Source: Salmonella phage vB_SenS-3. From it: a stretch of DNA of 64,000 nucleotides. Of this stretch, positions 3,902 through 28,355 are shown piece by piece; the first letter of the stretch is position 1; the number at the start of each line of letters is the position of its first letter. The DNA lies in the sequence record OR896822.1; one strand, given 5' to 3'. A model generated the notes under the pieces. The model searched no databases, was not told where the DNA came from, and saw only the letters and a program-made list of their open reading frames with translations. Both the position numbers and the translations under genes were made by a program.

Positions 3902-3930
3902 TTGCCAACCTCTATTAAAAATAGTATAAT
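3902..3930 (+). promoter_or_regulatory. sigma70-type promoter (TTGCCA N17 TATAAT)
   Basis: In divergent nrdD/phoH intergenic region. Confidence 0.5.
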
Positions 3931-4042
3931 CACACGCCCGTGTACGCGATATAAAATGATTATCTAGTACCATACATCTCCCAATAAAAGCAAGTAAATT
4001 TTTTATTTAAAAGCAATATCATGGGTTTATTTAAAATTATAC

Positions 4043-4071
4043 TTGCTTTTTGCTGTAAACCTTGTTATAAT
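4043..4071 (+). promoter_or_regulatory. sigma70-type promoter (TTGCTT N17 TATAAT)
   Basis: Second tandem promoter upstream of phoH. Confidence 0.5.
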
Positions 4072-10235: not shown

Positions 10236-10589
10236 ATGTTAATTATACTATTATTTGTCATATTCTTTCTAAAACATTTTATGGCCGATTATCCACTCCA
10301 AACACCATATATGCTAAGAAAGACGCATAAAATAGGGTGGAAACTTCCATTATTAACCCATTCGCTAGTACATGCTGGATTAACATTTGCAATTCTAATC
10401 CTATTCACATCACCAGGAATGTCTATAGCTTTAGCTATTATGGAATTAATTCTACACTTTATTATAGATTATTGGAAAGCACAACGCTGTAAATACGCTA
10501 TAAGCGATGCTAAGTTTTGGATAGCTTTAGGATTTGATCAGTTACTGCATTATCTGACATACGCCCTAATAATCTTGATTATAATCTAA
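10236..10589 (+). CDS. hypothetical membrane protein
   Basis: 117 aa, several hydrophobic segments. Confidence 0.45.
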   Translation: MLIILLFVIFFLKHFMADYPLQTPYMLRKTHKIGWKLPLLTHSLVHAGLTFAILILFTSPGMSIALAIMELILHFIIDYWKAQRCKYAISDAKFWIALGFDQLLHYLTYALIILIII

Positions 10590-10687
10590 TTCAAATAGCC
10601 CTTCGGGGCTATTATATTTAAATTTCATTTGCTTACTGAGTGAAATTCAAATATAATATACTTCTAATTTGACAGAAGGATTTAATA

Positions 10688-11266
10688 ATGACAGCCATAG
10701 TAGCATTTAAATATAAAGATAAAGTATACTTAGCTGGTGATCGTATGGGTTCTAATGGCTATACGAAACTGCTGGTTAAAAATCCGAAAGTATTCAAAAT
10801 CTCTGATGATTTGTACTTCGGATACACTAGTTCCTTCTACATGGGACAATTACTAGAGCATAGCTTTACTGTACCACCACGTTTAGCAGATATTTCCGAT
10901 GATAAATATTTATATACGGAAATAGTACCTAAATTACGTGATATGTTTAACCAGAAAGATTTTGGCGAAAAGAAAAATGAAAAATATGCTGAACCTAATC
11001 TGGGACAATTTATTATGCTCTACAAAGGAAGAATCTTTATTTTCCAATCTAATGCTTCTATTCTAGAAGTTGAATATGCCGGTGTAGGCTGTGGAGGAGA
11101 AGATGTACTTTCCAGTATTCGTACAGGTTTAGCTATTGCGGATTGTCGAGCCACAGATTTAGATGTAGATGATATATTTGAAATCATTGATCTGGCTTTT
11201 ACGCATTGTGCAGATTATATGTGTGGTGTATCTTCCCAACATGATGTTTTAGTAATTGGAGAATAA
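10688..11266 (+). CDS. Ntn-hydrolase / HslV-like peptidase (putative)
   Basis: N-terminus MTAIVAFKYKDKVYLAGDRMGSNG resembles HslV/proteasome beta subunit with Thr at position 2. Confidence 0.4.
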   Translation: MTAIVAFKYKDKVYLAGDRMGSNGYTKLLVKNPKVFKISDDLYFGYTSSFYMGQLLEHSFTVPPRLADISDDKYLYTEIVPKLRDMFNQKDFGEKKNEKYAEPNLGQFIMLYKGRIFIFQSNASILEVEYAGVGCGGEDVLSSIRTGLAIADCRATDLDVDDIFEIIDLAFTHCADYMCGVSSQHDVLVIGE

Positions 11267-11268: not shown

Positions 11269-11538
11269 ATGTCTATTCTTTTATCTGCTTTAGAAGCAAA
11301 ACAAAATACTATTGCTAGCATTAAAAAGGAAGTAATTGACCTAGAATCACTTATTGCCGTAGAGATTGACAAAGCTATTAAAGATAAAGAATTTAACTGT
11401 CACATCCAGGGATTAACTGAATACTCAGAAAACGCTAGAAATAGCGTCATGCAAAAACTTAGCAAACTAGGTTATGTTGTAGAAGCTAAGTATGAACAGC
11501 GTGAAGGTTTTTGGCTTGAAATTGATTGGAGCAAATAA
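11269..11538 (+). CDS. hypothetical protein
   Basis: 89-aa ORF. Confidence 0.4.
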   Translation: MSILLSALEAKQNTIASIKKEVIDLESLIAVEIDKAIKDKEFNCHIQGLTEYSENARNSVMQKLSKLGYVVEAKYEQREGFWLEIDWSK

Positions 11539-12034: not shown

Positions 12035-12063
12035 TTGCTTAAAGCCCTCGAATTTATTATAAT
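12035..12063 (+). promoter_or_regulatory. early-type promoter (TTGCTT N17 TATAAT)
   Basis: A-rich UP-like tract AAAAATTCA upstream. Confidence 0.55.
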
Positions 12064-14232: not shown

Positions 14233-14261
14233 TTGCTTTCAGCTCCAAAATTCTGTATAAT
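14233..14261 (+). promoter_or_regulatory. early-type promoter (TTGCTT N17 TATAAT)
   Basis: Same architecture. Confidence 0.55.
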
Positions 14262-16406: not shown

Positions 16407-16435
16407 TTGCTTTAAGCCTTAAAATTCTGTATAAT
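16407..16435 (+). promoter_or_regulatory. early-type promoter (TTGCTT N17 TATAAT)
   Basis: Same architecture. Confidence 0.55.
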
Positions 16436-17607: not shown

Positions 17608-18237
17608 TAATAGTGGGGTGCCGAAACCACTTATGTAACAACACTGCCGTCCTAGTATAATAGGTATTATTAGGGCTTCACCGCCTGAAGATGTGGGTTC
17701 GAGTCCCACGGTCGGAAAGAGTTGGATAACTGGTGCTTCTAATGGCGAAGCAATCGCAGGCAGTTGCGCACTGCCAAAACCACGCGGTAGTTGGTTCCAG
17801 GCTAACCAACCACTCTTGAAAAGTATATACTACGGTTTTGCTTGTTCAGGAAGCTTCGCATCGAAAATCGGAGGTGCGATTTTATCAGACCGCGTGGAGG
17901 ACGTCTCTCCGTTAAGTGACGAAAAGTGGGACGATTCAGGTAGAGCTGGATATGGAACACCTATACATATGCGGAGTGCGCACAAAGCATATTGCGGTGG
18001 TACTAAACGAAATTAGGAGTCATGACCTGCACAAGTTTAGTATGTCATAACCGATGTACATTCAGTACAAAAACCACTGAAGCTAAGATAGATAGTCACC
18101 TTGACTTAAACTGGAAGATATTGTCTGACGGAAGGGCTGCAGAGCTTAATCTGAGGGGGCTGACCCTACCTACCGTCGGGTATCTTTAAGAGTTCTTACG
18201 AGAACTCTTAAAGATACCTAAACATTAAGGAATACTG
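17608..18237 (+). ncRNA. candidate structured RNA (GC-rich, tRNA-like T-arm at 5' end, several hairpins)
   Basis: No RBS or promoter-proximal start; GTGGGTTCGAGTCCCAC T-arm at 17693-17709 without matching acceptor stem; local GC rise; many stems. Confidence 0.3.
18179..18218 (+). other. perfect 18-bp stem / 4-nt loop hairpin
   Basis: GGTATCTTTAAGAGTTCT / AGAACTCTTAAAGATACC inverted repeat just upstream of the ORF at 18238. Confidence 0.7.
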
Positions 18238-18747
18238 ATGAATCTAGGAACTACTTGTATATTTGATCACAGAGAAATGTGTTGCCCACATATTCTGTAT
18301 GTAGTTCACTTTGCAGAACGTCTTACTCTGGATGAAGCTCGTGAGAAAATGGGTGGAATTACTGGATATGATTTCCGTGAAGGTGAATACTTTAGCATTG
18401 CTCTTGATTACATTGACAATACCCGTCTCTATCATCTAGTGCAGCTAGGGGAAGAAACTGATGAAGTGAAAATGGCGAAAGATACTCTACGTCGTTATCG
18501 TCCTCAGATTCTAGAACGTACACTTCGTGGAGAACGTAGTGACCCATTGTTCTTGAAGTGCTATGACGCAGATGTTAATGAGTATCTAGGACAGCAACGG
18601 TTTTACACTGAAATCAAAGAGTTTGTTCGTGAAAAATACGACGCTCTACTAATTGATTCCAGAGCACGACGTGCAGCTAAAAATGCTGAGAAATCTGCTA
18701 AAGCAGCACTAGAAAGCCAAACCAAACTGAACGAAATCGTTAAGTGA
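18238..18747 (+). CDS. hypothetical protein
   Basis: 169-aa ORF, AAGG RBS. Confidence 0.5.
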   Translation: MNLGTTCIFDHREMCCPHILYVVHFAERLTLDEAREKMGGITGYDFREGEYFSIALDYIDNTRLYHLVQLGEETDEVKMAKDTLRRYRPQILERTLRGERSDPLFLKCYDADVNEYLGQQRFYTEIKEFVREKYDALLIDSRARRAAKNAEKSAKAALESQTKLNEIVK

Positions 18748-18755
18748 TCTAATTT

Positions 18756-18830
18756 CGGGGTGTAGTCTAAGGGATAGGCAGGAGTCTTCTAAATTCCTTT
18801 ATGCAGGTTCGAATCCTGTCACCTCGGCCA
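18756..18830 (+). tRNA. tRNA-Arg (anticodon TCT)
   Basis: Hand-folded cloverleaf: acceptor CGGGGTG/CACCTCG, T-loop TTCGAAT, anticodon loop CTTCTAA, CCA encoded. Confidence 0.65.
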
Positions 18831-18856
18831 ATCTTATTACCTGTTAGGAAAATAAA

Positions 18857-19057
18857 ATGAAAACACGATATATAGTAAAAGTAGTAGGTGAACATTCGCA
18901 AGTAAATACCACGGATGTTACAGCACTAGCATTTGAGGTAGTCTCCGGTATAGTCATATTTCATAATGGGGATATCAAAGCTCCTGAATTTGCTGTGGAT
19001 GCTGGCCTGTTTATTTCTGCAACTAAAGTAACTGTAGTAGCTAACTCTTCTAAATAA
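18857..19057 (+). CDS. hypothetical protein
   Basis: 66-aa ORF. Confidence 0.35.
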   Translation: MKTRYIVKVVGEHSQVNTTDVTALAFEVVSGIVIFHNGDIKAPEFAVDAGLFISATKVTVVANSSK

Positions 19058-19068
19058 TAAGGAAATAT

Positions 19069-20013
19069 ATGTTTACTAAAAACACTAAAGAACTGACTTC
19101 TGAGCAAAAAGTAATTCGTACTATTAAACGTTGGGGTGTTGGTGCTGCTATTAGTCTTGGTGCTCTTATTCTGGCTCTCAATTCCTATACAGTTGTTCAG
19201 GATGGTACTGTTAAGACCCAAACCTTCCTGGGTAAAGTTAGCCCTAATCCTGTATTGCCAGGCTTCCATATTGTTAACCCATTTGCTTCTTTTGATACTT
19301 TTAGTACGAAAGATATTTCCATGAAACTGGATAAACTTCAGGTTCCTAGCCAGGATAAGTTTAAGTCCACTGTTGACATTACCGTTATGTTGCAGTTTGA
19401 TGGTGCTAAAGCTCCTATGAACCGTGTTAACGCAGGTACTCAGGATCAAGCTCTGAACAAGTACGTTGAAGAGAAGATGCTGTCTACGATTCGTGAGTTT
19501 GGTAAGTCTGTACCAAAAGCACAAGATCTGTTCGACGCTAAGATTCAGGCTCAACTGCAAACCGCTATTCAGCAAGAAGTAGAAGAGTATGCGCGTCCTT
19601 ATGGTTACACCGTTAAGCAAGTATTCCTTCAGGATATTACTCTGCCACCGGTAATCATGGAACAGGTACAGAACACCAAAGTTCGTGAAGAACAAGTTAA
19701 CGCTGCAAAAGCTGAACTGGCTCGTGTTGAACAAGAAGCACAGCAGAAAGTTAAGCAAGCTGAGGCGGATCGTTCCGCTCGTGAAAACATGGCAGTAGCT
19801 AACGAACGTGACGCAGATGCTAAACTGTACGCAGCTAAGAAAGAAGCTGAAGCTAACGCCGCTCTGCAACGTACCATTACTCCTGAAATGATTCGTTGGA
19901 AGCAGCTGGAAGTTGAAATGCTTCGTGCTGAAAAATACCAAGGTGGTGTACCACAGACTGTTGTCGGTACTGGCTACGATGGTCAAATGATCATGGATAT
20001 GCGTAACAAGTAA
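19069..20013 (+). CDS. SPFH/band-7 (prohibitin/HflK-like) membrane protein
   Basis: N-terminal TM then VVQDGTVKTQTFLGK band-7 core and long coiled-coil Ala/Glu/Gln-rich C-terminus. Confidence 0.65.
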   Translation: MFTKNTKELTSEQKVIRTIKRWGVGAAISLGALILALNSYTVVQDGTVKTQTFLGKVSPNPVLPGFHIVNPFASFDTFSTKDISMKLDKLQVPSQDKFKSTVDITVMLQFDGAKAPMNRVNAGTQDQALNKYVEEKMLSTIREFGKSVPKAQDLFDAKIQAQLQTAIQQEVEEYARPYGYTVKQVFLQDITLPPVIMEQVQNTKVREEQVNAAKAELARVEQEAQQKVKQAEADRSARENMAVANERDADAKLYAAKKEAEANAALQRTITPEMIRWKQLEVEMLRAEKYQGGVPQTVVGTGYDGQMIMDMRNK

Positions 20014-20046
20014 TAGTTACACGTAATCTTCGAACCAAGCCCGCGT

Positions 20047-20082
20047 TTCCTTCGAGAGCGCGGGCTTTTCTGTATTTAAGGC
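20047..20082 (+). terminator. rho-independent terminator
   Basis: GCCCGCG...CGCGGGC stem followed by TTTTCTGTATTT. Confidence 0.6.
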
Positions 20083-20217
20083 AAAAGAAAAAGCCCATAA
20101 GTTATTCAACTAAGGTCTTTAGTATTTAATTCTTTAGAATCATATACTATTATTGCAGCAACAACGTGCTAACCTTAAGTGCCCTGCGATTTTCCTCTAA
20201 AAAGTTAAAAAATTCGA

Positions 20218-20246
20218 TTGCTTGAATGCTAAATTCTCTGTATAAT
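20218..20246 (+). promoter_or_regulatory. early-type promoter (TTGCTT N17 TATAAT)
   Basis: Upstream of nadR-pnuC. Confidence 0.55.
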
Positions 20247-20276
20247 ATATTTATAAATTTGAGAGAGGAATCAAAT

Positions 20277-21332
20277 ATGATTAAGACTGGTCTAGTAATT
20301 GGTAAGTTCGCACCATTAACGCGTGGTCATATTAACCTAATAAACACAGCAGCAACTATGTGTGAACGAGTTATTGTTGTAGTTAGTCATGATAATCGTT
20401 GGCTGGATAAGCAGAACACACGTGATAAGGAAGTATTACAGTTAAAGAATCGACTTCGTTGGTTAGAACAAACTTACGCGGATATTGAGCACATTTCGGT
20501 AGAGTACATTATTGAAGATGATATTCCTGAATATCCGAATGGTTGGCCGGAATATGCTAGAATCCTTAATGAAAATTACGGACATTTGCCTGAGATCACC
20601 GTTTTCTCTAGCGAACTAGACTATGATGCAGAATATAAGAAATATCTGCCGAAGTTTGGTCATTATATTGTAGATTCTGATCGGACTCGTGTTCCAATCT
20701 CAGCTACAATGATTCGTAATGATCTTATGAAGTATTGGGAGTTTCTTCCTAGCGTAGTTCGTAAAGATTACGTGCGTAAGGTTGTAATCATTGGGACTGA
20801 AAGCTCGGGAAAGACTACTTTAACAAAATACCTTGCGAAGCTATACAACACTTCGTGGGTAGAAGAATATGGTCGAACGTATTGTGAAGTTGATCTAGTT
20901 GGTAACGAAAATCTGCTTACCAGCGAAGATTATAGTAAAATTGCGTTCAGACACAAAGAGCTAGAGTTTGAAGCAGAACGTACTGCAAATAAGATCATGT
21001 TTGTGGATACAAATGCTTTTATTACTGAGTTCTACCACAGACTTTATGAACATAGTAAGAATCCTGTGGTTACAGCAATTGCAAAAGAAGAACATTATGA
21101 TTTAGTAATTGTTCTAGCGCCTACTGTCAAGTGGGTAGATGATGGTTTACGTATTAACTCCGATCGTTCAATTACTTCTGAACTATTCGAGCAGATGAAG
21201 AAAGAATTTCCAAATCAGTTCCCTGAAGGGCGTACTGTTTACATCGACTCTCCGGACTACAAAGTTCGTATGGACGAAGCAGTAAACGCAGTAGACTGGC
21301 TGATTCATCACTTTAACGTTGGAGAGTTTTAA
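20277..21332 (+). CDS. nadR: NadR-like bifunctional NMN adenylyltransferase / ribosylnicotinamide kinase
   Basis: GKFAPLTRGH nucleotidyltransferase motif plus IIGTESSGKTT P-loop; ATG 20277. Confidence 0.75.
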   Translation: MIKTGLVIGKFAPLTRGHINLINTAATMCERVIVVVSHDNRWLDKQNTRDKEVLQLKNRLRWLEQTYADIEHISVEYIIEDDIPEYPNGWPEYARILNENYGHLPEITVFSSELDYDAEYKKYLPKFGHYIVDSDRTRVPISATMIRNDLMKYWEFLPSVVRKDYVRKVVIIGTESSGKTTLTKYLAKLYNTSWVEEYGRTYCEVDLVGNENLLTSEDYSKIAFRHKELEFEAERTANKIMFVDTNAFITEFYHRLYEHSKNPVVTAIAKEEHYDLVIVLAPTVKWVDDGLRINSDRSITSELFEQMKKEFPNQFPEGRTVYIDSPDYKVRMDEAVNAVDWLIHHFNVGEF

Positions 21333-21333
21333 T

Positions 21334-21990
21334 ATGACTAACTATCTCGTAAATGACTTTAAAAACTGGAAACCTCTGGAATATCTGTGGCTGTTCATAG
21401 CGGTTGTCTTCATTAGTTTAGCAAACTATAATGGTACAGCTCTAGATTGGGCTACTGCAATAACCAATGTGGTTTGTGTTATTCTGGTTGCAAAAGGACG
21501 TATTTCCAACTATATTTGGGGCTTAGTGGGTGTTCTTACATATGGTATTACAGCTTTAAACGCAGATCTTTATGGTAACGCTGCACTAAACCTGCTATAC
21601 TACGTTCCTATGCAGTTTTATGGAATGTACTTATGGCATAAAAATAAGCCAAGTAATCTGCCAGATGTTCCAACTAAGGTTCTGACTAAAGCCCAAGCTC
21701 TGCTGACTCTAGGGATTCTAGCAGTAGCCACGTTAGGGTATGGTAGTTTCTTAGCTACTACGGCTGATCCATTTCCAATGTTGGATGCATTTACTGCTGT
21801 AGGTAGTGTGATCGCTATGTGGCTTATGGTTAAGCAATATGCCGAGCAGTGGCTGATCTGGATTGCTATTAACATTGGTACTGTGTACATTTGGCTTGTA
21901 ACTGCTCAATCTACAGGTGCATCTTATGCAATCCTAGCAATGTGGCTAGTATTCTTAGGTAACTCTATTATAGGAGCCTATAAAGGATAA
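21334..21990 (+). CDS. pnuC: PnuC-family nicotinamide riboside transporter
   Basis: Multi-TM protein with PnuC-like NxxxWxxG and LYYVPMQFYGMYLWHKN segments; immediately after nadR. Confidence 0.75.
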   Translation: MTNYLVNDFKNWKPLEYLWLFIAVVFISLANYNGTALDWATAITNVVCVILVAKGRISNYIWGLVGVLTYGITALNADLYGNAALNLLYYVPMQFYGMYLWHKNKPSNLPDVPTKVLTKAQALLTLGILAVATLGYGSFLATTADPFPMLDAFTAVGSVIAMWLMVKQYAEQWLIWIAINIGTVYIWLVTAQSTGASYAILAMWLVFLGNSIIGAYKG

Positions 21991-22018
21991 TTTGTACGCG
22001 TTAACAAATAAAGTAGTT

Positions 22019-22040
22019 ATAGCCCTCGCTTAGAGGGCTA
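22019..22040 (+). terminator. hairpin terminator candidate
   Basis: TAGCCCTC GCTTA GAGGGCTA stem-loop after pnuC. Confidence 0.5.
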
Positions 22041-22058
22041 TTATACAGAAATTTTCAC

Positions 22059-22087
22059 TTGCTTAATATAGAAAATTTCTGTATAAT
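22059..22087 (+). promoter_or_regulatory. early-type promoter (TTGCTT N17 TATAAT)
   Basis: Same architecture. Confidence 0.55.
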
Positions 22088-22117
22088 ATATTTATAAATT
22101 TGAGAGAGGAATCAAAT

Positions 22118-22414
22118 ATGAAACGCATTGTACTTGCATTGACTCTAGTATCTACTTCTGTATTTGCTGCTCCACAACAGGAACTTTGTCAAGTTCAAGT
22201 TTGTAATAAGCTAGAACGATTTACTCTAGACATTTGGTCCCACATTAAAGATAATATGGGTGAACAGTGTTTTGATATTGTTCTGCCAAAAGAACAAGCT
22301 GTTCCTGGGGCTGTTCTCAGCTCAGAATCACGTTGGTGGCAAGGTTCTTCTATCAACCCAACTAAGAAGTCAGTGACACGTATCAAACAAGTATATCAGT
22401 GCAACGTTCAGTAA
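22118..22414 (+). CDS. hypothetical secreted protein
   Basis: Signal peptide MKRIVLALTLVSTSVFAAP; Cys-containing. Confidence 0.45.
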   Translation: MKRIVLALTLVSTSVFAAPQQELCQVQVCNKLERFTLDIWSHIKDNMGEQCFDIVLPKEQAVPGAVLSSESRWWQGSSINPTKKSVTRIKQVYQCNVQ

Positions 22415-22422
22415 AATTTCAC

Positions 22423-22451
22423 TTGCTTAATGCCTAAATTTTCTGTATAAT
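22423..22451 (+). promoter_or_regulatory. early-type promoter (TTGCTT N17 TATAAT)
   Basis: Upstream of HNH gene and tRNAs. Confidence 0.55.
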
Positions 22452-22484
22452 ATATTCATAAATTTGGAAGATTAGGAACTATTT

Positions 22485-22994
22485 ATGTTAGACTATGAGT
22501 CTATACTTTATAGATTCCGTTTAGAAGATGGTGTACTGGTGTGGAATCCGCTCTCCGGAAACTCCAGAGAGGAGAAGATATTTAATACTAAGTTTGCCAA
22601 TAAACCTGCGGGATCTTTGCACAAAAGCTCTGGGTATATCAGAGTTAACGTTGATCACCAAGATTACTTAGCTCATATCATAGTATTTATACTATATTAT
22701 GGGTATAGGCCGGAAATGGTTGATCATAAAGACTGCAATAAGTTAAATATACATCCTTTAAATTTAAGAGCAGCGGATAGTACCACTAATACTCATAATG
22801 CTAGTAAATCTTCTAGGAATACTAGCGGATTTAAGGGAGTATCCTACCACAAAGCATCTGGTCAGTGGCAGGGTAGAATAATGTTTAAAGGTAAGTCATA
22901 CTCCGCAGGGCTGCACAGTACTCCTGAAGCAGCAAATGAAGCTCTAATTCAACTGAGAGAGAAACTTCATGGGGAATATGCCCGAAATAATTAA
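22485..22994 (+). CDS. HNH homing endonuclease with AP2-like domain
   Basis: VDHKDCNKLN HNH motif and FKGVSYHKASGQWQGRI AP2-like segment; paralog of the 17125 gene. Confidence 0.7.
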   Translation: MLDYESILYRFRLEDGVLVWNPLSGNSREEKIFNTKFANKPAGSLHKSSGYIRVNVDHQDYLAHIIVFILYYGYRPEMVDHKDCNKLNIHPLNLRAADSTTNTHNASKSSRNTSGFKGVSYHKASGQWQGRIMFKGKSYSAGLHSTPEAANEALIQLREKLHGEYARNN

Positions 22995-23083
22995 GGAAGA
23001 ATAGCATAACGGTATTGCAGCAGATTGCTAATCTGTCGGTTTGAAACATAGCCTTGTGGGTTCGATTCCCACTTCTTCCGCCA
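22995..23083 (+). tRNA. tRNA-Ser (anticodon GCT)
   Basis: Acceptor GGAAGAA/TTCTTCC, long variable arm, anticodon loop TTGCTAA, T-loop TTCGATT, CCA. Confidence 0.7.
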
Positions 23084-23088
23084 AATTT

Positions 23089-23166
23089 GGTTCTCAAGCT
23101 CATTTGGTATGAGCCGTCGCCTCATAAGCGAAAGGTAGGTAGGTTCGAATCCTCCGGGAGCCACCA
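23089..23166 (+). tRNA. tRNA-Met/Ile2 type (anticodon CAT)
   Basis: Acceptor with two G-U pairs, anticodon loop CTCATAA, T-loop TTCGAAT, CCA; one T-stem mismatch. Confidence 0.5.
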
Positions 23167-23315
23167 GATAACTAGGAGACTTTATGTCACGCTTTCACGA
23201 AATTAAGCAAGAACTAGAAGAATGTATGTGTACTGAATGTTGGGGTTCTGGCACTTAATGTTCCAGTGACTGGATTCCCTGATTGGCTGCAAGGTTACGA
23301 ACTCTAACAAAATTT

Positions 23316-23401
23316 GGATCTGTGGTGGAATTGGCAATACACACCATGCTTAAAACGTGGCGCTTAAATGATTGAGGGTTCGAGCCCCTCCAGATCCACC
23401 A
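23316..23401 (+). tRNA. tRNA-Leu (anticodon TAA)
   Basis: Acceptor GGATCTG/CAGATCC, anticodon loop CTTAAAA, long variable arm, T-loop TTCGAGC, CCA. Confidence 0.65.
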
Positions 23402-23417
23402 AATTAAGGAAGTAAAA

Positions 23418-23552
23418 ATGAAATCTATTAAGAAAGCTATTCGTGAACTTATCCGTTGTCGCTTCCATAGCATCAAGGCTTCAACTAATGGTACTACTTA
23501 CGATCGCTACGATCGCTATGATCCTAAGTTTGGCTTACATTCTAAATAACTG
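23418..23552 (+). CDS. hypothetical small basic protein
   Basis: 44-codon ORF with AAGGAAG RBS directly after tRNA-Leu; not in ORF track (below 60 aa). Confidence 0.25.
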
Positions 23553-23562
23553 GAGAAAACAA

Positions 23563-23769
23563 ATGGCTAATCCTGAAATTACGGCACAACGTTTTATGCT
23601 GAAAGGAATTATTGCTGAAGCAGGCGTGACACAAGAAGTGGAAGATTTCCATAAGCAGTTCCTAAATATTCTCACTCAAGCCAAAGAGCTAGGAGAGAAA
23701 GAACATGGCGCGGCTATTATGGCAATCACATTGGTTGGGCTTGATCTGGCAGAAGAATCAGGAGTTTAA
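23563..23769 (+). CDS. hypothetical protein
   Basis: ATG with GGAG RBS inside track ORF 23443..23769. Confidence 0.3.
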   Translation: MANPEITAQRFMLKGIIAEAGVTQEVEDFHKQFLNILTQAKELGEKEHGAAIMAITLVGLDLAEESGV

Positions 23770-23798
23770 CTTCTCCAAGCAGAAATTTTAAAAATGTA

Positions 23799-23829
23799 CT
23801 TGCTTTTTACTTAAGATTTCTGCTATAAT
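23799..23829 (+). promoter_or_regulatory. early-type promoter (TTGCTT, TATAAT, 19-bp spacer)
   Basis: Slightly long spacer. Confidence 0.4.
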
Positions 23830-23858
23830 AGTTATATAAGTTGATGAGAGGAATCAGA

Positions 23859-24134
23859 ATGTTAAAACGTTTTGCAGCAACTGGTATTGAAAGCTCAGTA
23901 TGTAAATCCTGGGGTGGTTGGGAAGGTGAGATCGAGTGGCTTTATTTCTACAATGTAGAACTTCTTCCAGAGATCAAAGCTCAATGTATTAAGGCTGGTA
24001 TGGCTCCTGATGCTACGGCTGATGTTGAAATCAGCATGAATAAGCTAGAGGGTCGAGTAGTCACTGTTACTGATGAAGGTGAAGAGGTATTCGAACTTCC
24101 ATTCACTTTGAAAGTCACTCCTTCATTTGATTAA
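23859..24134 (+). CDS. hypothetical protein
   Basis: 92 aa; promoter at 23799. Confidence 0.45.
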   Translation: MLKRFAATGIESSVCKSWGGWEGEIEWLYFYNVELLPEIKAQCIKAGMAPDATADVEISMNKLEGRVVTVTDEGEEVFELPFTLKVTPSFD

Positions 24135-24142
24135 CTGATACA

Positions 24143-24183
24143 GCACTTGAGCAAGTTCTTTAAAATTTGACTTGCTCAAGTGC
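24143..24183 (+). promoter_or_regulatory. 13-bp inverted repeat overlapping the -35 of a promoter (candidate operator)
   Basis: GCACTTGAGCAAG ... CTTGCTCAAGTGC flanking TTGACT -35; TATAAT at 24196. Confidence 0.45.
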
Positions 24184-24325
24184 CTTAAAACTTGATATAA
24201 TAGTTACCTAATTTGGAAACATATCTGAATGAGAAGTAATTAAGCGAGTTGCTTTGAGGGATAAAGTCAGGATAGCCGGAAATATTCCACCTTGAGTTTA
24301 ACCGACTTACTTTTCATTCAAATAT

Positions 24326-24406
24326 GGGGGATTGGCTCAGTGGCGACGGCGCCTGGCTGTAGACCGGGTATATCACGCGGAGGTTCGAGTCCTCCATCCC
24401 CCACCA
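24326..24406 (+). tRNA. tRNA-Tyr (anticodon GTA)
   Basis: Acceptor GGGGGAT/ATCCCCC, anticodon loop CTGTAGA, T-loop TTCGAGT, CCA. Confidence 0.6.
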
Positions 24407-24414
24407 AAATTAAT

Positions 24415-24489
24415 GCACCTATCGTCTAATGGTTAGGACATCAGGATTTCAATCTGAGAATTGAACTCCGATTCTCCGTGGGTGTGCCA
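24415..24489 (+). tRNA. tRNA-Glu-like element (anticodon TTC), aberrant T-arm, possible pseudogene
   Basis: D-arm TCGTCTAATGGTTAGGACA and anticodon loop ATTTCAA look Glu-like; T-arm region forms a 6-bp stem with 9-nt loop instead of canonical T-arm. Confidence 0.35.
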
Positions 24490-24498
24490 ATTAATAAT

Positions 24499-24569
24499 TG
24501 GGGTACGCATAGGTTGCTAGTGGGCCTCCAAAACCCATGAAAAGGTTTCGAATACCTTTACCCCTGCCA
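24499..24569 (+). tRNA. tRNA-Trp (anticodon CCA), weak D-arm
   Basis: Anticodon loop CTCCAAA, T-arm AAGGT TTCGAAT ACCTT, acceptor 6/7 pairs, CCA. Confidence 0.5.
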
Positions 24570-24575
24570 ATATTT

Positions 24576-24650
24576 GCACCTTTAGCTGAGATGGATTAGC
24601 GCTTGCCTGAAGAGCTTGAGAGGTTCGTTCAATTCGAACAGGGTGCACCA
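24576..24650 (+). tRNA. tRNA-Phe-like element (GAA loop) with disrupted anticodon stem
   Basis: Perfect acceptor and T-arm (GTTCG TTCAATT CGAAC), loop CTGAAGA, but flanking CTTGC/GCTTG cannot pair. Confidence 0.4.
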
Positions 24651-24667
24651 ATTTGAAGGAGATGCTG

Positions 24668-24940
24668 ATGCATCCTGAAAACTTCTTTATATACTGTACT
24701 AGTCCTTTGCTTAAACGCCGGATTAATAAAGTATATCACTACAGAGCTAGTCAACAGCCTTATGTTTATGATTCTAGTGGAGATCATATTCCACTTGAGC
24801 AACTAGGGACTGATTATATGGTTTTGAAGCACTTTAATGAGGCGAAGATCTCTAGCGTTCATAACCGACAAAACTCTAAAACGTGGTGGCATAAGAAGCG
24901 TAAGAAAGGCATCAAATTTCTTAAAAATGTAGTTGCTTAA
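24668..24940 (+). CDS. hypothetical basic protein
   Basis: AAGGAG RBS, ATG 24668; 3' end overlaps next promoter. Confidence 0.35.
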   Translation: MHPENFFIYCTSPLLKRRINKVYHYRASQQPYVYDSSGDHIPLEQLGTDYMVLKHFNEAKISSVHNRQNSKTWWHKKRKKGIKFLKNVVA

Positions 24941-24961
24941 ATCCTTAAAGTTCTGTATAAT
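24933..24961 (+). promoter_or_regulatory. early-type promoter (TTGCTT N17 TATAAT)
   Basis: Same architecture. Confidence 0.55.
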
Positions 24962-24989
24962 TATTACATAAATTGAACTGGAGAACTAG

Positions 24990-25178
24990 ATGAAAGCACC
25001 TAAACCGAAATTAGTTAAGTTCGACTGCTGTGATACTGAAATCTTATTTACTAAGTTTGGTGAATTTAAGATGTGTGAATGTGGAACATGTGGTTACGAT
25101 CATGGTGATGGATATTATTGCAGAACCCTAGGGCCTTCTGAACTAATCCACTTCTCATGGCCGGAAAGTAAAGAATAA
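24990..25178 (+). CDS. hypothetical Cys-rich small protein
   Basis: 62 aa with CC..C.C..C..C pattern (possible zinc ribbon). Confidence 0.4.
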   Translation: MKAPKPKLVKFDCCDTEILFTKFGEFKMCECGTCGYDHGDGYYCRTLGPSELIHFSWPESKE

Positions 25179-25180
25179 TA

Positions 25181-25256
25181 CGACCGTTGGCTGAATGGCT
25201 TAGGCGGAGGCCTGCAAAACCTCCTTATGTGAGTTCGAATCTCATGCGGTCGTCCA
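25181..25256 (+). tRNA. tRNA-Cys (anticodon GCA)
   Basis: Anticodon loop CTGCAAA, T-loop TTCGAAT, discriminator T, CCA; 5' base C. Confidence 0.5.
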
Positions 25257-25408
25257 ATTTGCTGAAAGAATTGTTAAATCAATTCAGGCACGCGTAGGAA
25301 CACTGCCTCAGTAATTGAAAGATGAGGCACGGTTTGGAGAGGTATGCCGCTACACGCTACGGTGCTAACTCCGTCTAGGTGAAAATCCTAGTCAGCAATA
25401 TAAATTTA

Positions 25409-25491
25409 GGGTCGTTAGCCAAGCGGTTTGGCGGTGGACTGTTAATCCATGTCGAAAGACAACGTAGGTTCGAATCCTACACGGCCCGCCA
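25409..25491 (+). tRNA. tRNA with anticodon GTT (Asn), atypically long variable region
   Basis: Acceptor GGGTCGT/ACGGCCC, anticodon loop CTGTTAA, T-loop TTCGAAT, CCA. Confidence 0.45.
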
Positions 25492-25594
25492 TATTCTATG
25501 TAGGATTAAGTAAACCGGTAGCCAACCAGCTATCATTACTGATATCGAATTCAGTCACAGATACCATTTTTCACTAACAACTGAGGAAATAGAT

Positions 25595-25780
25595 ATGACA
25601 ACTCGTGCAATTGCTCGACTAGAAGCTGATCGTGATAATCTGATTAATAATATTAAGGTTCGTGGTAATATTATTAAGGCTCTGAAAGCTGAACTTCTTG
25701 AAGAACTTCAAGGTCAAGTAGAGCGTCGTGAAGCTCTAAAAGAGGTTGAGGAAGCTATCGAAAAACTCAAGGCTGAATAA
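25595..25780 (+). CDS. hypothetical coiled-coil protein
   Basis: 61-aa ORF. Confidence 0.4.
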   Translation: MTTRAIARLEADRDNLINNIKVRGNIIKALKAELLEELQGQVERREALKEVEEAIEKLKAE

Positions 25781-25783
25781 ATT

Positions 25784-26365
25784 ATGCACGGAATATCCTT
25801 ACCCATTCCAGGGTTTGAGGAGTACTTAGTAAGTTTGGATGGGTTAGTATTTAGTATCAAATCAAACAAAATACTAACCCCAATAACCAGTAATTACGGA
25901 TACTTATCTATACGTCTCCATAAAAATGGTCAACAGAGAAATACCGGTGTACATAGGATTTTAGCATGTGCATTTAAGAAATTACCAAGTCTAGACTCTG
26001 AACTAGAAGTTGACCATATTAACACAGACATTACTTATTGGGGTCTTAATAACTTACAAGTGCTCACAAAAGAGCAGCATCTAGAAAAGACTTTAAAAGA
26101 TAAAGGATTTAGTAAACTAAACCATGATAATTGTTGTAAGGATTGTGGTAAAGCTATTTCTTTAAAAGCTGAAAAATGTCAGGAGTGCTCTTCACATAAA
26201 CCAAAAGATATCTCTATAACTAAAGAAATAATCGAGGTTACAGTAAGAGAGCTAGGCTGGTCAGGTGCAGGGAGAAAGTTAAATTATTCAGATAATGGGT
26301 TGCGTAAAAGATACACTTCTTTAGGAGGCAATCCTAAAGAACTTAAAAAGTTAAAGGTACTATAG
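25784..26365 (+). CDS. HNH endonuclease (NUMOD-like N-terminus, Cys-rich C-terminus)
   Basis: EVDHINTDITYWGLNNLQVLTKEQH HNH motif; CCKDCGKA..C.EC zinc-finger-like tail; 3' end overlaps tRNA-Asp 5' end. Confidence 0.6.
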   Translation: MHGISLPIPGFEEYLVSLDGLVFSIKSNKILTPITSNYGYLSIRLHKNGQQRNTGVHRILACAFKKLPSLDSELEVDHINTDITYWGLNNLQVLTKEQHLEKTLKDKGFSKLNHDNCCKDCGKAISLKAEKCQECSSHKPKDISITKEIIEVTVRELGWSGAGRKLNYSDNGLRKRYTSLGGNPKELKKLKVL

Positions 26366-26430
26366 TCTAACGGTTAGGATACTCCCCTGTCACGGGAGAG
26401 GTAGGGTTTCGATTACCCTTAGTACCGCCA
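26356..26430 (+). tRNA. tRNA-Asp (anticodon GTC)
   Basis: Acceptor GGTACTA/TAGTACC, anticodon loop CTGTCAC, T-loop TTCGATT, CCA. Confidence 0.7.
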
Positions 26431-26436
26431 AATTAT

Positions 26437-26513
26437 ACATCCATAGCTCAACTGGTCAGAGCTACCGCCTCTTAAGCGGAGGGTTGAAGGTTCAAGTCCT
26501 TCTGGGAGTACCA
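26437..26513 (+). tRNA. tRNA-Lys (anticodon CTT)
   Basis: Anticodon loop CTCTTAA, T-arm GAAGG TTCAAGT CCTTC, acceptor 6/7 pairs, CCA. Confidence 0.5.
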
Positions 26514-26715
26514 AACAAATAGAGTAAAGGCTACAGTAGGTGCACCCTTACGGACTGCTACACCGGACTCTATTCATTAACAAACATTCTAGCGTGGTGG
26601 AGAGGGGACACCAGCTGTGCGAGGGTAGAAGCTTGTTCGATTCAAGTGAAAGAATGGTTCTCGTAAATCCGCAGCAGTGATAGTAGGTTCAAGTCCTACC
26701 TAGATTGACTTATTA

Positions 26716-26790
26716 TGCGTTCGTAGTTAAAAGGTATAATTTTTGGTTGCCAACCAGAAGTTGAGGGTTCGATTCCCTCCGACCGCACCA
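26716..26790 (+). tRNA. tRNA-Gly (anticodon GCC)
   Basis: Anticodon loop TTGCCAA, T-arm GAGGG TTCGATT CCCTC, acceptor 6/7, CCA. Confidence 0.55.
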
Positions 26791-27041
26791 AATTTAGGTT
26801 TCTGCTTCCTAGAGAACGGACTCCTAGATAAACAAGGCGATGAGTTTCCGGCCGGTTCTAGTCGCTGAAAATCCTCCCGACCAGGTAGGTGTAGGTAAAC
26901 GAAAGTTTACTTATTGAGTAGGTTCCGATAGATCGGCGGATCTATTCTGGCATTTAAGAGAAGTCTCGCAAACTTCTTTGTCAGCAGAGCGTTTGAAGCG
27001 TGAGGTGGCCTACACAATAAGTAAATTTATTAAAAACTCAT

Positions 27042-27070
27042 TTGCTATTTCACTTAATTCTCTTTATAAT
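27042..27070 (+). promoter_or_regulatory. early-type promoter (TTGCTA N17 TATAAT) driving tRNA operon
   Basis: tRNA-Pro begins 33 nt downstream. Confidence 0.55.
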
Positions 27071-27102
27071 ATATCTTATAAAGTGAGTTAACAAAGAATA
27101 TT

Positions 27103-27180
27103 CTCCGTGTAGCTCAGTTTGGCCAGAGCGTTCCGTTTGGGGCGGTAGGGTCGGGGGTTCAAATCCTCCCACGGAGACCA
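27103..27180 (+). tRNA. tRNA-Pro (anticodon TGG)
   Basis: Acceptor CTCCGTG/CACGGAG, anticodon loop TTTGGGG, T-loop TTCAAAT, CCA. Confidence 0.6.
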
Positions 27181-27186
27181 AACAAT

Positions 27187-27264
27187 TGCGGGTTAGATCT
27201 CTGGTAGAGATCGCTAGTCTCATAAGCTAGAAAGAGGTAGGTTAGATTCCTACACCCGCTTCCA
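27187..27264 (+). tRNA. tRNA-Met (anticodon CAT)
   Basis: D-stem GATC/GATC, anticodon arm CTAGT CTCATAA GCTAG, T-loop TTAGATT, CCA. Confidence 0.55.
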
Positions 27265-27283
27265 ATTTAATAGAGGATACGAA

Positions 27284-27447
27284 ATGAAATTATTTCGATT
27301 GGTAGTAAGTGATAGACGGTCTAGCAAAGATCGTTCGAAGTATACCTTAGCCCATTATGGGAAAGATGAAAATGAAGTAATGGCTGAATTTGGTATTAAT
27401 CATCGCTACTTAGAAGTTTACTCTATTAAGGAAGTTTATCCGTATTA
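27284..27447 (+). CDS. hypothetical small protein
   Basis: 54-codon ORF between tRNAs with AGAGGA RBS. Confidence 0.3.
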
Positions 27448-27448
27448 A

Positions 27449-27526
27449 GGGTCGTTAGCTCAATTGGTTAGTAGCACTTGCCTTTTAAGCAATAGGTTGA
27501 AGGTTCGAGTCCTTCACGACCCACCA
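27449..27526 (+). tRNA. tRNA-Lys (anticodon TTT)
   Basis: Acceptor GGGTCGT/ACGACCC, anticodon loop CTTTTAA, T-arm GAAGG TTCGAGT CCTTC, CCA. Confidence 0.65.
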
Positions 27527-27535
27527 AATTACTTT

Positions 27536-27609
27536 GCTCGGTTAGTTTAATGGGAGAACCCCGTCTTTACACGGCGGTTGCGATAGTTCGATTCTATCAC
27601 CGAGTACCA
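27536..27609 (+). tRNA. tRNA-Val (anticodon TAC)
   Basis: Anticodon arm CCGTC TTTACAC GGCGG, T-arm GATAG TTCGATT CTATC, CCA. Confidence 0.6.
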
Positions 27610-27634
27610 ATTAACTCAAAATAAGGAATTGCAA

Positions 27635-27988
27635 ATGCAATTATCAAGCAAGATTCAAGGCTATTTTGGTCATGTAACAATGGAGTTCGCTATCTCTAAA
27701 GGTTGGGATTTCGAGCAAGATCTAGCTGAGTTCTACAAAGATATTGATCTGAACGTACCATACATGGGACTCTCCACTGGTCAAGAGATCACAGAAGGCG
27801 ATGTGTTCAAGGCAAGTCAAGGTGAGGTAACACCTAGTTTTGCCAAGTTCTGGTTAGGACTTACTTTGAAGGAAGATGCACCAGAGGATGGTGTGGTTAT
27901 GCAGAGTATGCACTCTGGAAGCTCTGATTACCTTTTCGTTAGCGACGTTAAGGAACTACAAGAAATCGCTAAAAATGTACTTGCTTGA
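27635..27988 (+). CDS. hypothetical protein
   Basis: ATG 27635 after AAGGA RBS. Confidence 0.45.
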   Translation: MQLSSKIQGYFGHVTMEFAISKGWDFEQDLAEFYKDIDLNVPYMGLSTGQEITEGDVFKASQGEVTPSFAKFWLGLTLKEDAPEDGVVMQSMHSGSSDYLFVSDVKELQEIAKNVLA

Positions 27989-28009
27989 TGCTTAATTTCT
28001 TGTTATAAT
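27981..28009 (+). promoter_or_regulatory. early-type promoter (TTGCTT N17 TATAAT) driving 250-nt leader plus tRNAs
   Basis: No ORF for 260 nt downstream, then tRNA-Ala pair. Confidence 0.55.
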
Positions 28010-28271
28010 ATTTATATAAATTGATGAGGAGAAATCCTCATCAAAGTTCACTAAGGTATTAGCTCGACCTAGGGCTGGCTGCCAAAAAGCACAATTGCAA
28101 TTAGACCCCTAATGGCGGGGGATACTTTGCAATAAGTTCTAGATTAGTCCACTAGATTCAGTGGCAACTGAATAGTGTATCGGGTTTGTGAAGAGCGGTT
28201 ATCCTCTACTGGCTAATGTCTGAGGGTAATACGCACACCGAGCTAATAGCCTTAGTAAACTTAAAGATTTT

Positions 28272-28350
28272 GGGGAATGGGTCTGCTTGGAGTGGACACC
28301 TCGCTTGCACCGAGGATATCAGAAGAGTTCGAATCTCTTATTCTCCACCA
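28272..28350 (+). tRNA. tRNA-Ala (anticodon TGC), copy 1
   Basis: G3:U70 pair in acceptor, anticodon arm CCTCG CTTGCAC CGAGG, T-loop TTCGAAT, CCA. Confidence 0.55.
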
Positions 28351-28355
28351 AATTC

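What the first reader, a model, noticed from the sequence alone, without database searches (positions are those of the whole stretch)
10688..11266. HslV / proteasome-like Ntn-hydrolase candidate
The N-terminus MTAIVAFKYKDKVYLAGDRMGSNG aligns by eye with HslV (TTIVSVRRNGKVVIAGDGQ...), with a Thr at position 2 that would be the nucleophile after Met removal. A phage-encoded self-compartmentalising peptidase would be unusual; a ClpP-like protein is also present at 37795.
Basis: inference. Interest (0 to 1): 0.5.

Follow-up and report, generated by a model that had tools for sequence, protein, structure and literature searches.

The report
Phage proteasome-like threonine hydrolase gene
A T5-like Salmonella/E. 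coli phage carries a real, well-conserved gene for a small proteasome/HslV-like enzyme; this kind of phage gene is already catalogued, but nobody knows what it does.

Summary
The ORF at 10688..11266 (+, 192 aa) is real. The window is an Epseptimavirus (EPS7-like, T5 relatives), and the protein is 100% identical to proteins RefSeq already calls "peptidase HslV family".

- Pfam Proteasome PF00227 scores 38.5 bits (cut-off 22.4) over the full length.
- Met1-Thr2, Asp18, Lys34 and Gly45 are invariant in 70 diverse relatives.
- pN/pS is about 0.05.

It is not a true HslV. Identity is 16-19%, the loop after helix 2 is longer, the HslU-docking residues are not conserved, and no ATPase partner is encoded nearby. 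The Ser129-equivalent residue is Cys.

Its bacterial relatives (Streptomyces, Azospirillum, rhizobia, myxobacteria) and its compact four-helix subunit best fit the uncharacterised "AAH" clade of Fuchs, Alva and Lupas (2021), which they already noted in phages.

The gene is an accessory early gene with its own T5-type promoter, sitting between thy and rnh. It is absent from T5 and from some close relatives.

The likely mechanism, inferred only, is an N-terminal-threonine peptidase, probably ring-forming. Its substrates are unknown.

It is an ordinary, already-annotated family member.

The parts
10594..10613 (+). Stem-loop (8-bp stem, UUCG loop) just after the stop of the upstream DUF3307 gene. 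It is terminator-like and separates the upstream gene from the promoter of the proteasome-homolog gene.
   Evidence: RNA fold -12.2 kcal/mol, z -3.2, 0 of 200 shuffles fold as well. The consensus terminator scan did not call it because the T-run is weak.
10629..10657 (+). T5-type early promoter TTGCTT-N17-TATAAT, 31 bp upstream of the start codon.
   Evidence: The exact pattern occurs 12 times in the window against 0.04 expected. Window 10587-10663 aligns to the segment of T5 (L004 3905-3985) that overlaps the annotated promoter (3918-3992) between thy and rnh.
10676..10680 (+). Shine-Dalgarno-like AAGGA, 7 nt before the ATG.
   Evidence: Read directly from the sequence.
10688..11266 (+). CDS, 192 aa: proteasome-like N-terminal-threonine (family T1) hydrolase, best fit the AAH clade. 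Key codons: Thr2 10691-10693 (nucleophile after Met removal), Asp18 10739-10741, Lys34 10787-10789, Gly45 10820-10822 (oxyanion), Cys135 11090-11092 (at the Ser129/Ser124 position).

Best explanation
The ORF encodes a functional, early-expressed accessory enzyme of the proteasome-like (MEROPS T1 type) Ntn-hydrolase superfamily. It is a compact 'group I' homolog and most probably belongs to the AAH clade of Fuchs, Alva and Lupas (2021). Proposed mechanism: the gene is transcribed from its own T5-type sigma-70 early promoter. Host methionine aminopeptidase removes Met1, since there is no propeptide. The exposed Thr1 then acts as nucleophile with the Asp17/Lys33 pair and the Gly oxyanion hole, exactly as in HslV, BPH and the proteasome. 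A Cys replaces the Ser that normally hydrogen-bonds Thr1. By analogy with its closest structural relatives (BPH, HslV), the subunit most likely assembles into stacked homo-oligomeric rings and cleaves peptides or unfolded proteins inside the infected cell. It has no dedicated phage ATPase, so it would be either unfoldase-independent like BPH or would borrow a host factor. What is shown: the gene is real, conserved under purifying selection and promoter-equipped, and it has the fold and the catalytic residue set. What is inferred: Met removal, peptidase activity, ring assembly and ATP-independence. The physiological substrates are unknown. The gene is dispensable for the phage lineage, because it is absent from T5 and from some Epseptimaviruses.

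For: Active site: M1, T2, D18, K34, G45 and G134 are invariant in 70 relatives sharing only 27-74% identity. Position 135 is Cys in 47 and Ser in 20 of those 70. Profile alignment puts T1/D17/K33/G44/C134 (mature numbering) on HslV T1/D17/K33/G45/S124.

Functional gene: pN/pS is 0.045-0.067. The protein is 100% identical in many phages. Relatives with only 50-57% identity sit in the same thy-to-rnh slot.

Expression: promoter TTGCTT-N17-TATAAT lies at 10629-10657, one of 12 in the window against 0.04 expected. It falls in the window segment that aligns to the thy-rnh intergenic region of T5 carrying an annotated promoter.

No partner ATPase: none is annotated across the collinear stretch covering roughly the first 50 kb of the window. 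No conserved neighbour appears in 80 bacterial or 80 viral loci. This agrees with PMC8665760, which says 'no co-occurring AAA+ interactors'.

AAH placement: bacterial relatives are mainly Streptomyces, Azospirillum, rhizobia and Polyangiaceae, and the family is widespread in phages. This matches the published AAH distribution (PMC8665760). PPH is excluded by length and by the presence of helix H2.
Against: No biochemical data exist for this protein or for any AAH member. No functional paper was found. The closest characterised relative, BPH, showed no activity against a wide range of standard peptide substrates and casein despite a complete active site (PMC5777263). A complete active site therefore does not guarantee general peptidase activity. 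The Ser129-equivalent is Cys. Oligomeric state could not be modelled with the tools available. AAH membership was not tested against the published AAH sequences, which were unavailable here. Genomic contexts across phages are heterogeneous (replication, head morphogenesis and PhoH neighbourhoods) and give no functional clue.
Confidence: 0.6

Rival explanations
1. It is a genuine HslV-type protease subunit that docks onto the host HslU (ClpY) unfoldase, alone or mixed with host HslV. The phage thereby redirects ATP-dependent proteolysis in E. coli or Salmonella.
For: The hosts encode HslUV (established knowledge). The phage encodes no ATPase partner. HslV is among the top structural hits. RefSeq, IMG and UniRef name the family 'peptidase HslV family' or 'ATP-dependent protease HslVU peptidase subunit'.
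Against: Identity to HslV is only 16-19%. No HslV NCBIfam model matches. The residues that accommodate the HslU C-terminus in E. coli and H. influenzae HslV are Phe54, Phe57 and Gln114 (PMC6429459). They align to His/Gln, Thr/Glu and Glu here. Lys28, which I recall as a further contact, aligns to Leu. Family positions 25-32 have no consensus. The loop after H2 is about 9-10 residues longer than in HslV, which is BPH-like. The same family is abundant in Streptomyces, a phylum in which HslV is not listed (Table 1 of PMC8665760). The family function therefore cannot depend on HslU.
Confidence: 0.12
2. It is not a bulk protease. It would be a specialised Ntn enzyme, such as a sequence-specific endopeptidase or transpeptidase like connectase, or an amidohydrolase acting on one defined host or phage target. 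It might be monomeric or form small oligomers.
Confidence: 0.2
3. It is a decaying or catalytically dead passenger gene with no function for the phage.
For: The gene is dispensable. It is absent from T5 and from Epseptimaviruses S116 and S126. Its GC content is slightly lower than the window average, 34.5% vs 39.6%.
Against: pN/pS is 0.045-0.067. All catalytic residues are invariant. The reading frame is intact, with its own promoter and SD. The gene is retained in the same slot at 50-57% protein identity.
Confidence: 0.03

Closest known systems
[quoted passage not shown]
   Same: It is a compact subunit of about 180-190 aa with H1-H4, no propeptide, no insertions and no C-terminal S12/H5. It has the Thr1/Asp17/Lys33/Gly set. 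The distribution matches: alpha-proteobacteria, Actinobacteria (Streptomyces), some Firmicutes and many phages. No associated AAA+ partner is found.
   Different: Membership is inferred from distribution and architecture. The published AAH representative (WP_035979212) could not be retrieved for a direct comparison. The Epseptimavirus branch has Ala instead of the usual Cys at position 3, and Tyr instead of Arg in the GYTSSF(R/Y)MGQ motif.
BPH (bacterial/beta-proteobacterial proteasome homolog; PDB 5ovs, 5ovu; PMC5777263)
   Different: Identity is only 13-20%. The BPH pore loop is highly acidic, whereas here it is mixed-charge with net charge 0. BPH keeps Ser at the Ser129 position, and here it is Cys. 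The BPH tetradecamer is proven, while the oligomeric state here is unknown.
HslV (ClpQ), peptidase subunit of HslUV
   Different: Several HslV features are missing. There is no hslU neighbour. The HslU-pocket residues are not conserved. The pore loop is longer. GSG is replaced by GCG. Identity is 16-19%. No HslV NCBIfam hit is found.
[quoted passage not shown]
   Same: It is a phage-borne group I proteasome homolog, and PHROG 1040 lumps such proteins together.
   Different: PPH is about 140 aa and lacks helix H2. This protein is 192 aa with a clear H2 at residues 71-89.

Membership tests
Proteasome-like Ntn hydrolases (Pfam PF00227 / MEROPS T1) | Sequence profile match above the curated threshold | tested here: met
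   PF00227 scores 38.5 bits against a gathering score of 22.4, covering residues 2-189 and profile positions 5-188 of 189.
Proteasome-like Ntn hydrolases (Pfam PF00227 / MEROPS T1) | Alpha-beta-beta-alpha Ntn sandwich with helices H1-H4 | tested here: met
Proteasome-like Ntn hydrolases (Pfam PF00227 / MEROPS T1) | N-terminal Thr (or Ser) nucleophile exposed at residue 1 of the mature chain | tested here: met
   M1-T2 is invariant in 70 of 70 relatives, and no upstream in-frame start is possible. Actual Met removal is not testable here.
Proteasome-like Ntn hydrolases (Pfam PF00227 / MEROPS T1) | Asp17 and Lys33 catalytic partners and the Gly47 oxyanion residue | tested here: met
   D18, K34 and G45 (Met-numbered) are invariant in 70 of 70. 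They align to HslV D17, K33 and G45.
Proteasome-like Ntn hydrolases (Pfam PF00227 / MEROPS T1) | Ser129 (HslV Ser124, BPH Ser139) hydrogen-bonding Thr1 | tested here: not met
   The residue is Cys135 here. Across the family it is Cys in 47, Ser in 20 and Ala in 2 of 70. It aligns to the Ser of the HslV GSG motif. This is a conservative variant, not a loss of the motif G-x-G.
Proteasome-like Ntn hydrolases (Pfam PF00227 / MEROPS T1) | Thr1-dependent peptidase activity or covalent epoxomicin labelling | not testable with these tools
   This needs purified protein.
HslV (ClpQ) | Orthologue-level sequence similarity | tested here: not met
   No HslV NCBIfam model matches. The family profile hits HslV only weakly (E 4.9e-6 to 0.07), about as well as PrcB and BPH. 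Structural identity is 16-19%.
HslV (ClpQ) | Pocket residues that accommodate the HslU C-terminal tail (Phe54, Phe57, Gln114 in E. coli and H. influenzae HslV, from PMC6429459; Lys28 from my own recollection) | tested here: not met
   Profile alignment gives His/Gln, Thr/Glu, Glu and Leu at these positions. No register gives the Phe pair.
HslV (ClpQ) | Adjacent or co-encoded HslU ATPase | tested here: not met
   The neighbours are thy, DUF3307, an 89-aa ORF and rnh. No AAA+ unfoldase is annotated over the collinear genome stretch that covers about the first 50 kb of the window. No conserved neighbour appears in 160 related loci.
HslV (ClpQ) | Very short pore loop after H2 | tested here: not met
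   The model has an 18-residue loop (residues 90-107) between H2 and the next strand. HslV shows a gap of 9-10 residues there.
HslV (ClpQ) | Dodecameric double hexamer | not testable with these tools
   Only monomer prediction was available.
AAH clade (Fuchs et al. 2021) | Compact group I subunit: H1-H4 present, no insertions, no S12/H5, no propeptide | tested here: met
   The secondary-structure order is seen in the model. In the 150 best representatives, the match begins at or within a few residues of the N-terminus in nearly all.
AAH clade (Fuchs et al. 2021) | Phyletic pattern: alpha-proteobacteria plus Actinobacteria, also Firmicutes and many phages | tested here: met
   There are 396 bacterial loci. 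The best 80 are dominated by Streptomyces, Azospirillum, Mesorhizobium/Rhizobium/Ensifer/Devosia and Polyangiaceae, with some Paenibacillus, Brevibacillus and Oceanobacillus. A further 364 viral contigs encode relatives.
AAH clade (Fuchs et al. 2021) | Clusters with the published AAH sequences (for example WP_035979212) in CLANS or HHpred | not tested
   The reference sequences are not held in the supplement. They were not recovered through cluster look-ups.
PPH (Fuchs et al. 2021) | About 140 residues, lacking helix H2 | tested here: not met
   The protein is 192 aa, with H2 at residues 71-89.
BPH | Elongated, highly acidic pore loop | tested here: inconclusive
   The loop is elongated but has net charge 0 here. 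The family median is -1.

The most novel reading that the evidence does not exclude
The phage proteasome homolog might be a host-takeover or counter-defence protease. Expressed early from a strong T5-type promoter in a hot-swappable accessory slot, it would destroy specific host proteins such as immunity or stress-response factors. Alternatively it would hijack or poison a host unfoldase. That would make it the first functionally defined viral proteasome-family enzyme and give a function to the orphan AAH clade.
Probability: 0.12. Interest if true: 0.7.

Novelty: already known. Interest (0 to 1): 0.28.

Why it matters
Identifying this gene adds nothing new. The identical protein is in GenBank (EPS7, 2008) and in RefSeq as 'peptidase HslV family'. 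Phage-borne proteasome homologs were catalogued in 2021.

The biology is what remains open. No member of this clade, with about 6,700 representatives at 50% identity in metagenomes, has a known substrate, oligomeric state or partner. T5-like phages of E. coli and Salmonella are genetically tractable. Natural isogenic-like variants with and without the gene exist (EPS7-type vs S116/S126). These phages would therefore be a convenient system for finding out what a viral proteasome homolog does.

Tried and rejected
1. Second copy or alpha/beta-type partner in the window. An HMM of the family run against all six-frame ORFs found only this gene.

2. Conserved neighbour or partner ATPase. ORFs from 80 bacterial loci and 80 viral loci were clustered all-against-all. 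Only antisense 'shadow' ORFs and lineage-specific synteny were recovered. Phage contexts vary: head morphogenesis, replication, PhoH.

3. Downstream 89-aa ORF (11269..11538) as a partner. Rejected. It is kept in S116 and S126, which lack the proteasome homolog. It is absent next to the homolog in KKP_3711 and L170. It shows no similarity to the C-terminal modules of the long forms.

4. Upstream DUF3307 membrane gene as a partner. Rejected. S126 has DUF3307 without the homolog, and annotation suggests SB13 has the homolog without it.

5. PADLOC defence models: no hit. NCBIfam: only sub-threshold proteasome hits.

6. Direct proof of AAH membership. The paper's supplement holds no sequences. Cluster look-ups gave only 'hypothetical protein', 'Ntn hydrolase' or 'HslVU peptidase subunit' names.

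7. The AFDB50 fold library was not available.

8. Literature searches for a functional study of phage HslV-like or proteasome-like proteins found none.

9. Horizontal-transfer signal. GC and codon usage are only mildly atypical, and not diagnostic.

Full report
OBSERVATION. The ORF is present as described: 10688..11266 on the + strand, ATG start, 192 aa, with N-terminus MTAIVAFKYKDKVYLAGDRMGSNG. The stop-to-stop frame opens only five codons upstream, at 10673. No N-terminal extension or propeptide is therefore possible, and Thr is residue 2. An AAGGA Shine-Dalgarno lies 7 nt before the ATG.

WHERE THE WINDOW COMES FROM. The 2.8 kb around the gene is 99.4-99.5% identical to many Epseptimavirus genomes (T5 relatives, Demerecviridae). 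Examples are Salmonella phages OSY-STA, 3-29 and 118970_sal2, and Escherichia phage EPS7. The protein is 100% identical in EPS7, 118970_sal2 (YP_009323828) and many others. Its annotations vary: 'hypothetical protein', 'peptidase HslV family' (RefSeq), 'proteasome subunit-like protein', 'threonine-type endopeptidase' and, in UniRef, 'ATP-dependent protease'.

WHAT THE PROTEIN IS.
- Pfam PF00227 (Proteasome) matches residues 2-189 at 38.5 bits against a gathering score of 22.4. PHROG 1040 'peptidase HslV family' gives E 1.9e-21.
- A single-sequence search of the PDB gives only marginal proteasome beta hits.
- A profile of 18 relatives hits T. maritima HslV (E 4.9e-6), mycobacterial PrcB, archaeal beta subunits, BPH and E. 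coli HslV at about the same weak level.
- No HslV or proteasome NCBIfam equivalog is reached, and no PADLOC defence model matches.
- An AlphaFold2 model built on that alignment is confident (pLDDT 89.7, pTM 0.87). It has the canonical order of strands and helices: H1 50-59, H2 71-89, H3 137-153, H4 160-177.
- Foldseek against the PDB returns HslV and BPH first, at E about 1e-9 to 1e-8 and TM 0.63-0.74.

The Ntn or proteasome-like fold is therefore established. The protein is roughly equidistant from BPH, HslV and beta subunits.

ACTIVE SITE. In the 18-sequence alignment and in a 70-sequence alignment of relatives sharing only 27-74% identity with it, M1, T2, D18, K34, G45, G106 and G134 are invariant. 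T47, S49, F50, M52, G53, Q54, P63 and G136 are nearly so. Profile alignment with HslV places Thr1, Asp17, Lys33 and the oxyanion Gly on their HslV counterparts. It also places Cys135 on the Ser of the G-S-G motif, which is HslV Ser124, proteasome Ser129 and BPH Ser139 (residue roles from PMC5777263 and PMC8665760). Across the family that position is Cys in 47, Ser in 20 and Ala in 2 of 70 sequences. The catalytic apparatus is complete apart from a Ser-to-Cys change that is typical of this family. Removal of Met1 before Thr by methionine aminopeptidase is expected from its established specificity. It was directly shown for BPH, which likewise has Met-Thr (PMC5777263). It is inferred here.

IS IT A WORKING GENE? 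Against two diverged Epseptimavirus alleles, pN/pS is 0.067 (12 synonymous, 3 non-synonymous changes) and 0.045 (55.5 and 9.5). More distant Demerecviridae carry a 50-57% identical homolog in exactly the same place, between thymidylate synthase and RNase H. Examples are Enterobacter phage KKP_3711 and an 82-kb metagenomic contig. The gene is under strong purifying selection.

EXPRESSION AND GENOMIC SETTING. The order in the window is nrdA, nrdB, frd (DHFR), thy, a DUF3307 membrane protein, this gene, an 89-aa ORF, then rnh. A stable hairpin follows DUF3307 at 10594-10613 (-12.2 kcal/mol, z -3.2). After it comes TTGCTT-N17-TATAAT at 10629-10657. That exact pattern occurs 12 times in the window against 0.04 expected. 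The segment aligns to the thy-rnh intergenic region of T5 that carries an annotated promoter. The -35 TTGCTT is what I recall of T5 early promoters such as PN25 (own knowledge).

The gene is accessory:
- T5 has thy, then a promoter, then rnh, with nothing between.
- Epseptimavirus S116 lacks both DUF3307 and this gene.
- S126 keeps DUF3307 but has about 270 bp with a different small ORF in place of this gene.
- tblastn finds no phage homolog in the 60-90% identity band. Tequintaviruses therefore lack it.
- The 89-aa downstream ORF and the DUF3307 gene vary independently of it, so they are not partners.

FAMILY SIZE AND DISTRIBUTION. An exhaustive profile search of 1.84 billion representatives found 6,704 proteins at E<=1e-3 and 836 at E<=1e-30. 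Among the 150 best, the match nearly always begins at or within a few residues of the N-terminus. A minority have acidic C-terminal extensions of 100-200 residues with no Pfam match. Relatives occur in 196 phage GenBank records. These include Aeromonas Plateaulakevirus, Vibrio phages, the 350-kb Asteriusvirus-type jumbo phages 121Q and PBECO4, and Moorella and Salicola phages. Relatives also occur in 364 IMG/VR contigs and in 26 BFVD structure clusters, which include Gordonia phages.

In bacterial genomes, 396 loci carry the signature G[YF]T[TSG]SF[RY]MG. The best 80 are mainly Streptomyces, Azospirillum, Mesorhizobium, Rhizobium, Ensifer, Devosia, Polyangiaceae and other Myxococcota, and Paraburkholderia. 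A few are Bacillales. There the proteins are named 'hypothetical', 'Ntn hydrolase family protein' or, by COG transfer, 'HslVU peptidase subunit'.

COMPARISON WITH WHAT IS KNOWN. Fuchs, Alva and Lupas (2021, PMC8665760) surveyed proteasome homologs and defined group I: HslV, BPH, AAH, CPH, PPH, RPC and DPH. They state that PPH (about 140 aa, lacking H2) is 'the first true viral member'. [quoted passage not shown] They found no co-occurring AAA+ partner or informative genomic context for the new homologs.

The present protein has H2 and is 192 aa, so it is not PPH. Its relatives show the AAH phyletic pattern and the compact group I architecture. I therefore assign it to AAH with about 0.7 confidence. 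I could not compare it with the published AAH sequences.

It is not an HslV orthologue, for these reasons:
- The residues that receive the HslU C-terminal tail are not conserved.
- The loop after H2 is about 18 residues against a very short one in HslV. The paper links a short loop with regulation by HslU and a long loop with the partner-less BPH.
- There is no hslU-like gene nearby or in the annotated collinear region, which covers about the first 50 kb of the window.
- The family thrives in Streptomyces, a phylum for which HslV is not listed (Table 1 of PMC8665760).

MECHANISM (best estimate). This is an early-expressed accessory N-terminal-threonine hydrolase. The steps would be Met1 removal, then Thr1 nucleophile with Asp17, Lys33 and the Gly oxyanion. 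It probably assembles into BPH- or HslV-like stacked rings and hydrolyses peptides or unfolded proteins, without a dedicated ATPase.
- Shown: the gene, promoter, purifying selection, fold and catalytic residues.
- Inferred: Met processing, activity, ring assembly and ATP-independence.
- Unknown: the substrates.

One caution applies. BPH, the closest solved relative, has a perfect active site that binds epoxomicin, yet it showed no activity on a wide range of standard peptide substrates and casein (PMC5777263). A narrow substrate range is therefore a live alternative.

Conserved-neighbour analysis of 160 related loci gave no partner. Other phages show suggestive but inconsistent arrangements:
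- Two adjacent proteasome homologs in Aeromonas phage 4L372D (both match PHROG 1040).
- A ClpP-like 'protease' two genes upstream in the jumbo phages.
- Long forms with an acidic linker and a C-terminal '...K(Y/F)PHNIG...' module.

VERDICT. The gene is already annotated, and its family has already been described in phages. Novelty is low, and the interest is modest. It rests only on the complete absence of functional data for this large clade and on the tractability of T5-like phages for obtaining it.

Noticed in passing
window 37795-38394 (+): ClpP-like ORF of 199 aa (Pfam CLP_protease 30.8 bits vs gathering 20.2; annotated 'ATP-dependent Clp protease proteolytic subunit ClpP' in phage ZBSTP12). 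It sits between a dNMP kinase and holin/lysozyme genes, with no ClpX/ClpA-type ATPase annotated. The phage thus carries two orphan chambered-protease-type subunits. The jumbo phages with a homolog of the finding also have a ClpP-like 'protease' two genes upstream (L006 3065-3673).
   Followed up: partly
window 10236-10589 (+): DUF3307 membrane protein of 117 aa (Pfam 46.4 bits; PHROG 2470 'moron/host takeover'), with unusually low GC (31.9%) and atypical codon usage (correlation 0.30). It is a separate variable cassette: present in S126 without the proteasome homolog, and absent in S116.
   Followed up: partly
L003 (Salmonella phage S126) 1787-2058; L002 (S116) 1430-1690: In these close relatives the proteasome-homolog gene is replaced by about 265-270 bp of unrelated sequence. 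In S126 this carries an 84-98 aa ORF (MGLFKKKVYLTQSQERRFLAL..., Pro-rich C-terminus). The thy-rnh gap, downstream of the same promoter, therefore behaves as a hot-swappable accessory slot.
   Followed up: partly
window, 12 sites (1848-1876 -, 4043-4071, 10629-10657, 12035-12063, 14233-14261, 16407-16435, 20218-20246, 22059-22087, 22423-22451, 24933-24961, 27981-28009, 61673-61701 -): The exact motif TTGCTT-N17-TATAAT occurs 12 times against 0.04 expected. These are presumably the T5-type early promoters. The generic sigma-70 scan missed them because TTGCTT matches only 3 of 6 positions of TTGACA.
   Followed up: partly
window 17645-31618 (+): A cluster of 28 tRNA genes called by ARAGORN. It includes one called tRNA-SeC (anticodon tca) at 17645-17718, which is more likely an opal-suppressor-like or mis-typed tRNA. 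It also includes duplicated tRNA-Ala(tgc) and three tRNA-Met(cat).
   Followed up: no
L005 (Aeromonas phage 4L372D) 4001-4552 and 4570-5454; L007 (Vibrio phage R16F) 4001-4642 and 4645-4989: Some phages carry two adjacent proteasome homologs. One is a 183-aa protein of the same family as the finding. The other is a 294-aa, more HslV-like protein with an acidic linker and a small C-terminal module. In Vibrio phage R16F a long-form gene appears split into 213-aa and 114-aa ORFs, which together resemble the 315-aa protein P0047. This might mean hetero-oligomers or docking domains.
   Followed up: partly
BFVD hits A0A345MIR8 (Gordonia phage Daredevil), A0A142KAQ6 (Gordonia phage Nymphadora): Structural relatives of the model occur in actinobacteriophages (Foldseek E 9.5e-9 and 2e-4). 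Fuchs et al. 2021 reported finding no Actinobacteria-specific phages encoding AAH. Whether these Gordonia proteins are AAH was not checked.
   Followed up: no
window 11269-11538 (+): An 89-aa ORF (PHROG 13270, unknown function) starts 2 nt after the stop of the proteasome homolog, with a GGAGA inside the upstream gene's 3' end. It abuts the rnh start. It looks translationally coupled but is evolutionarily independent of the proteasome homolog.
   Followed up: partly
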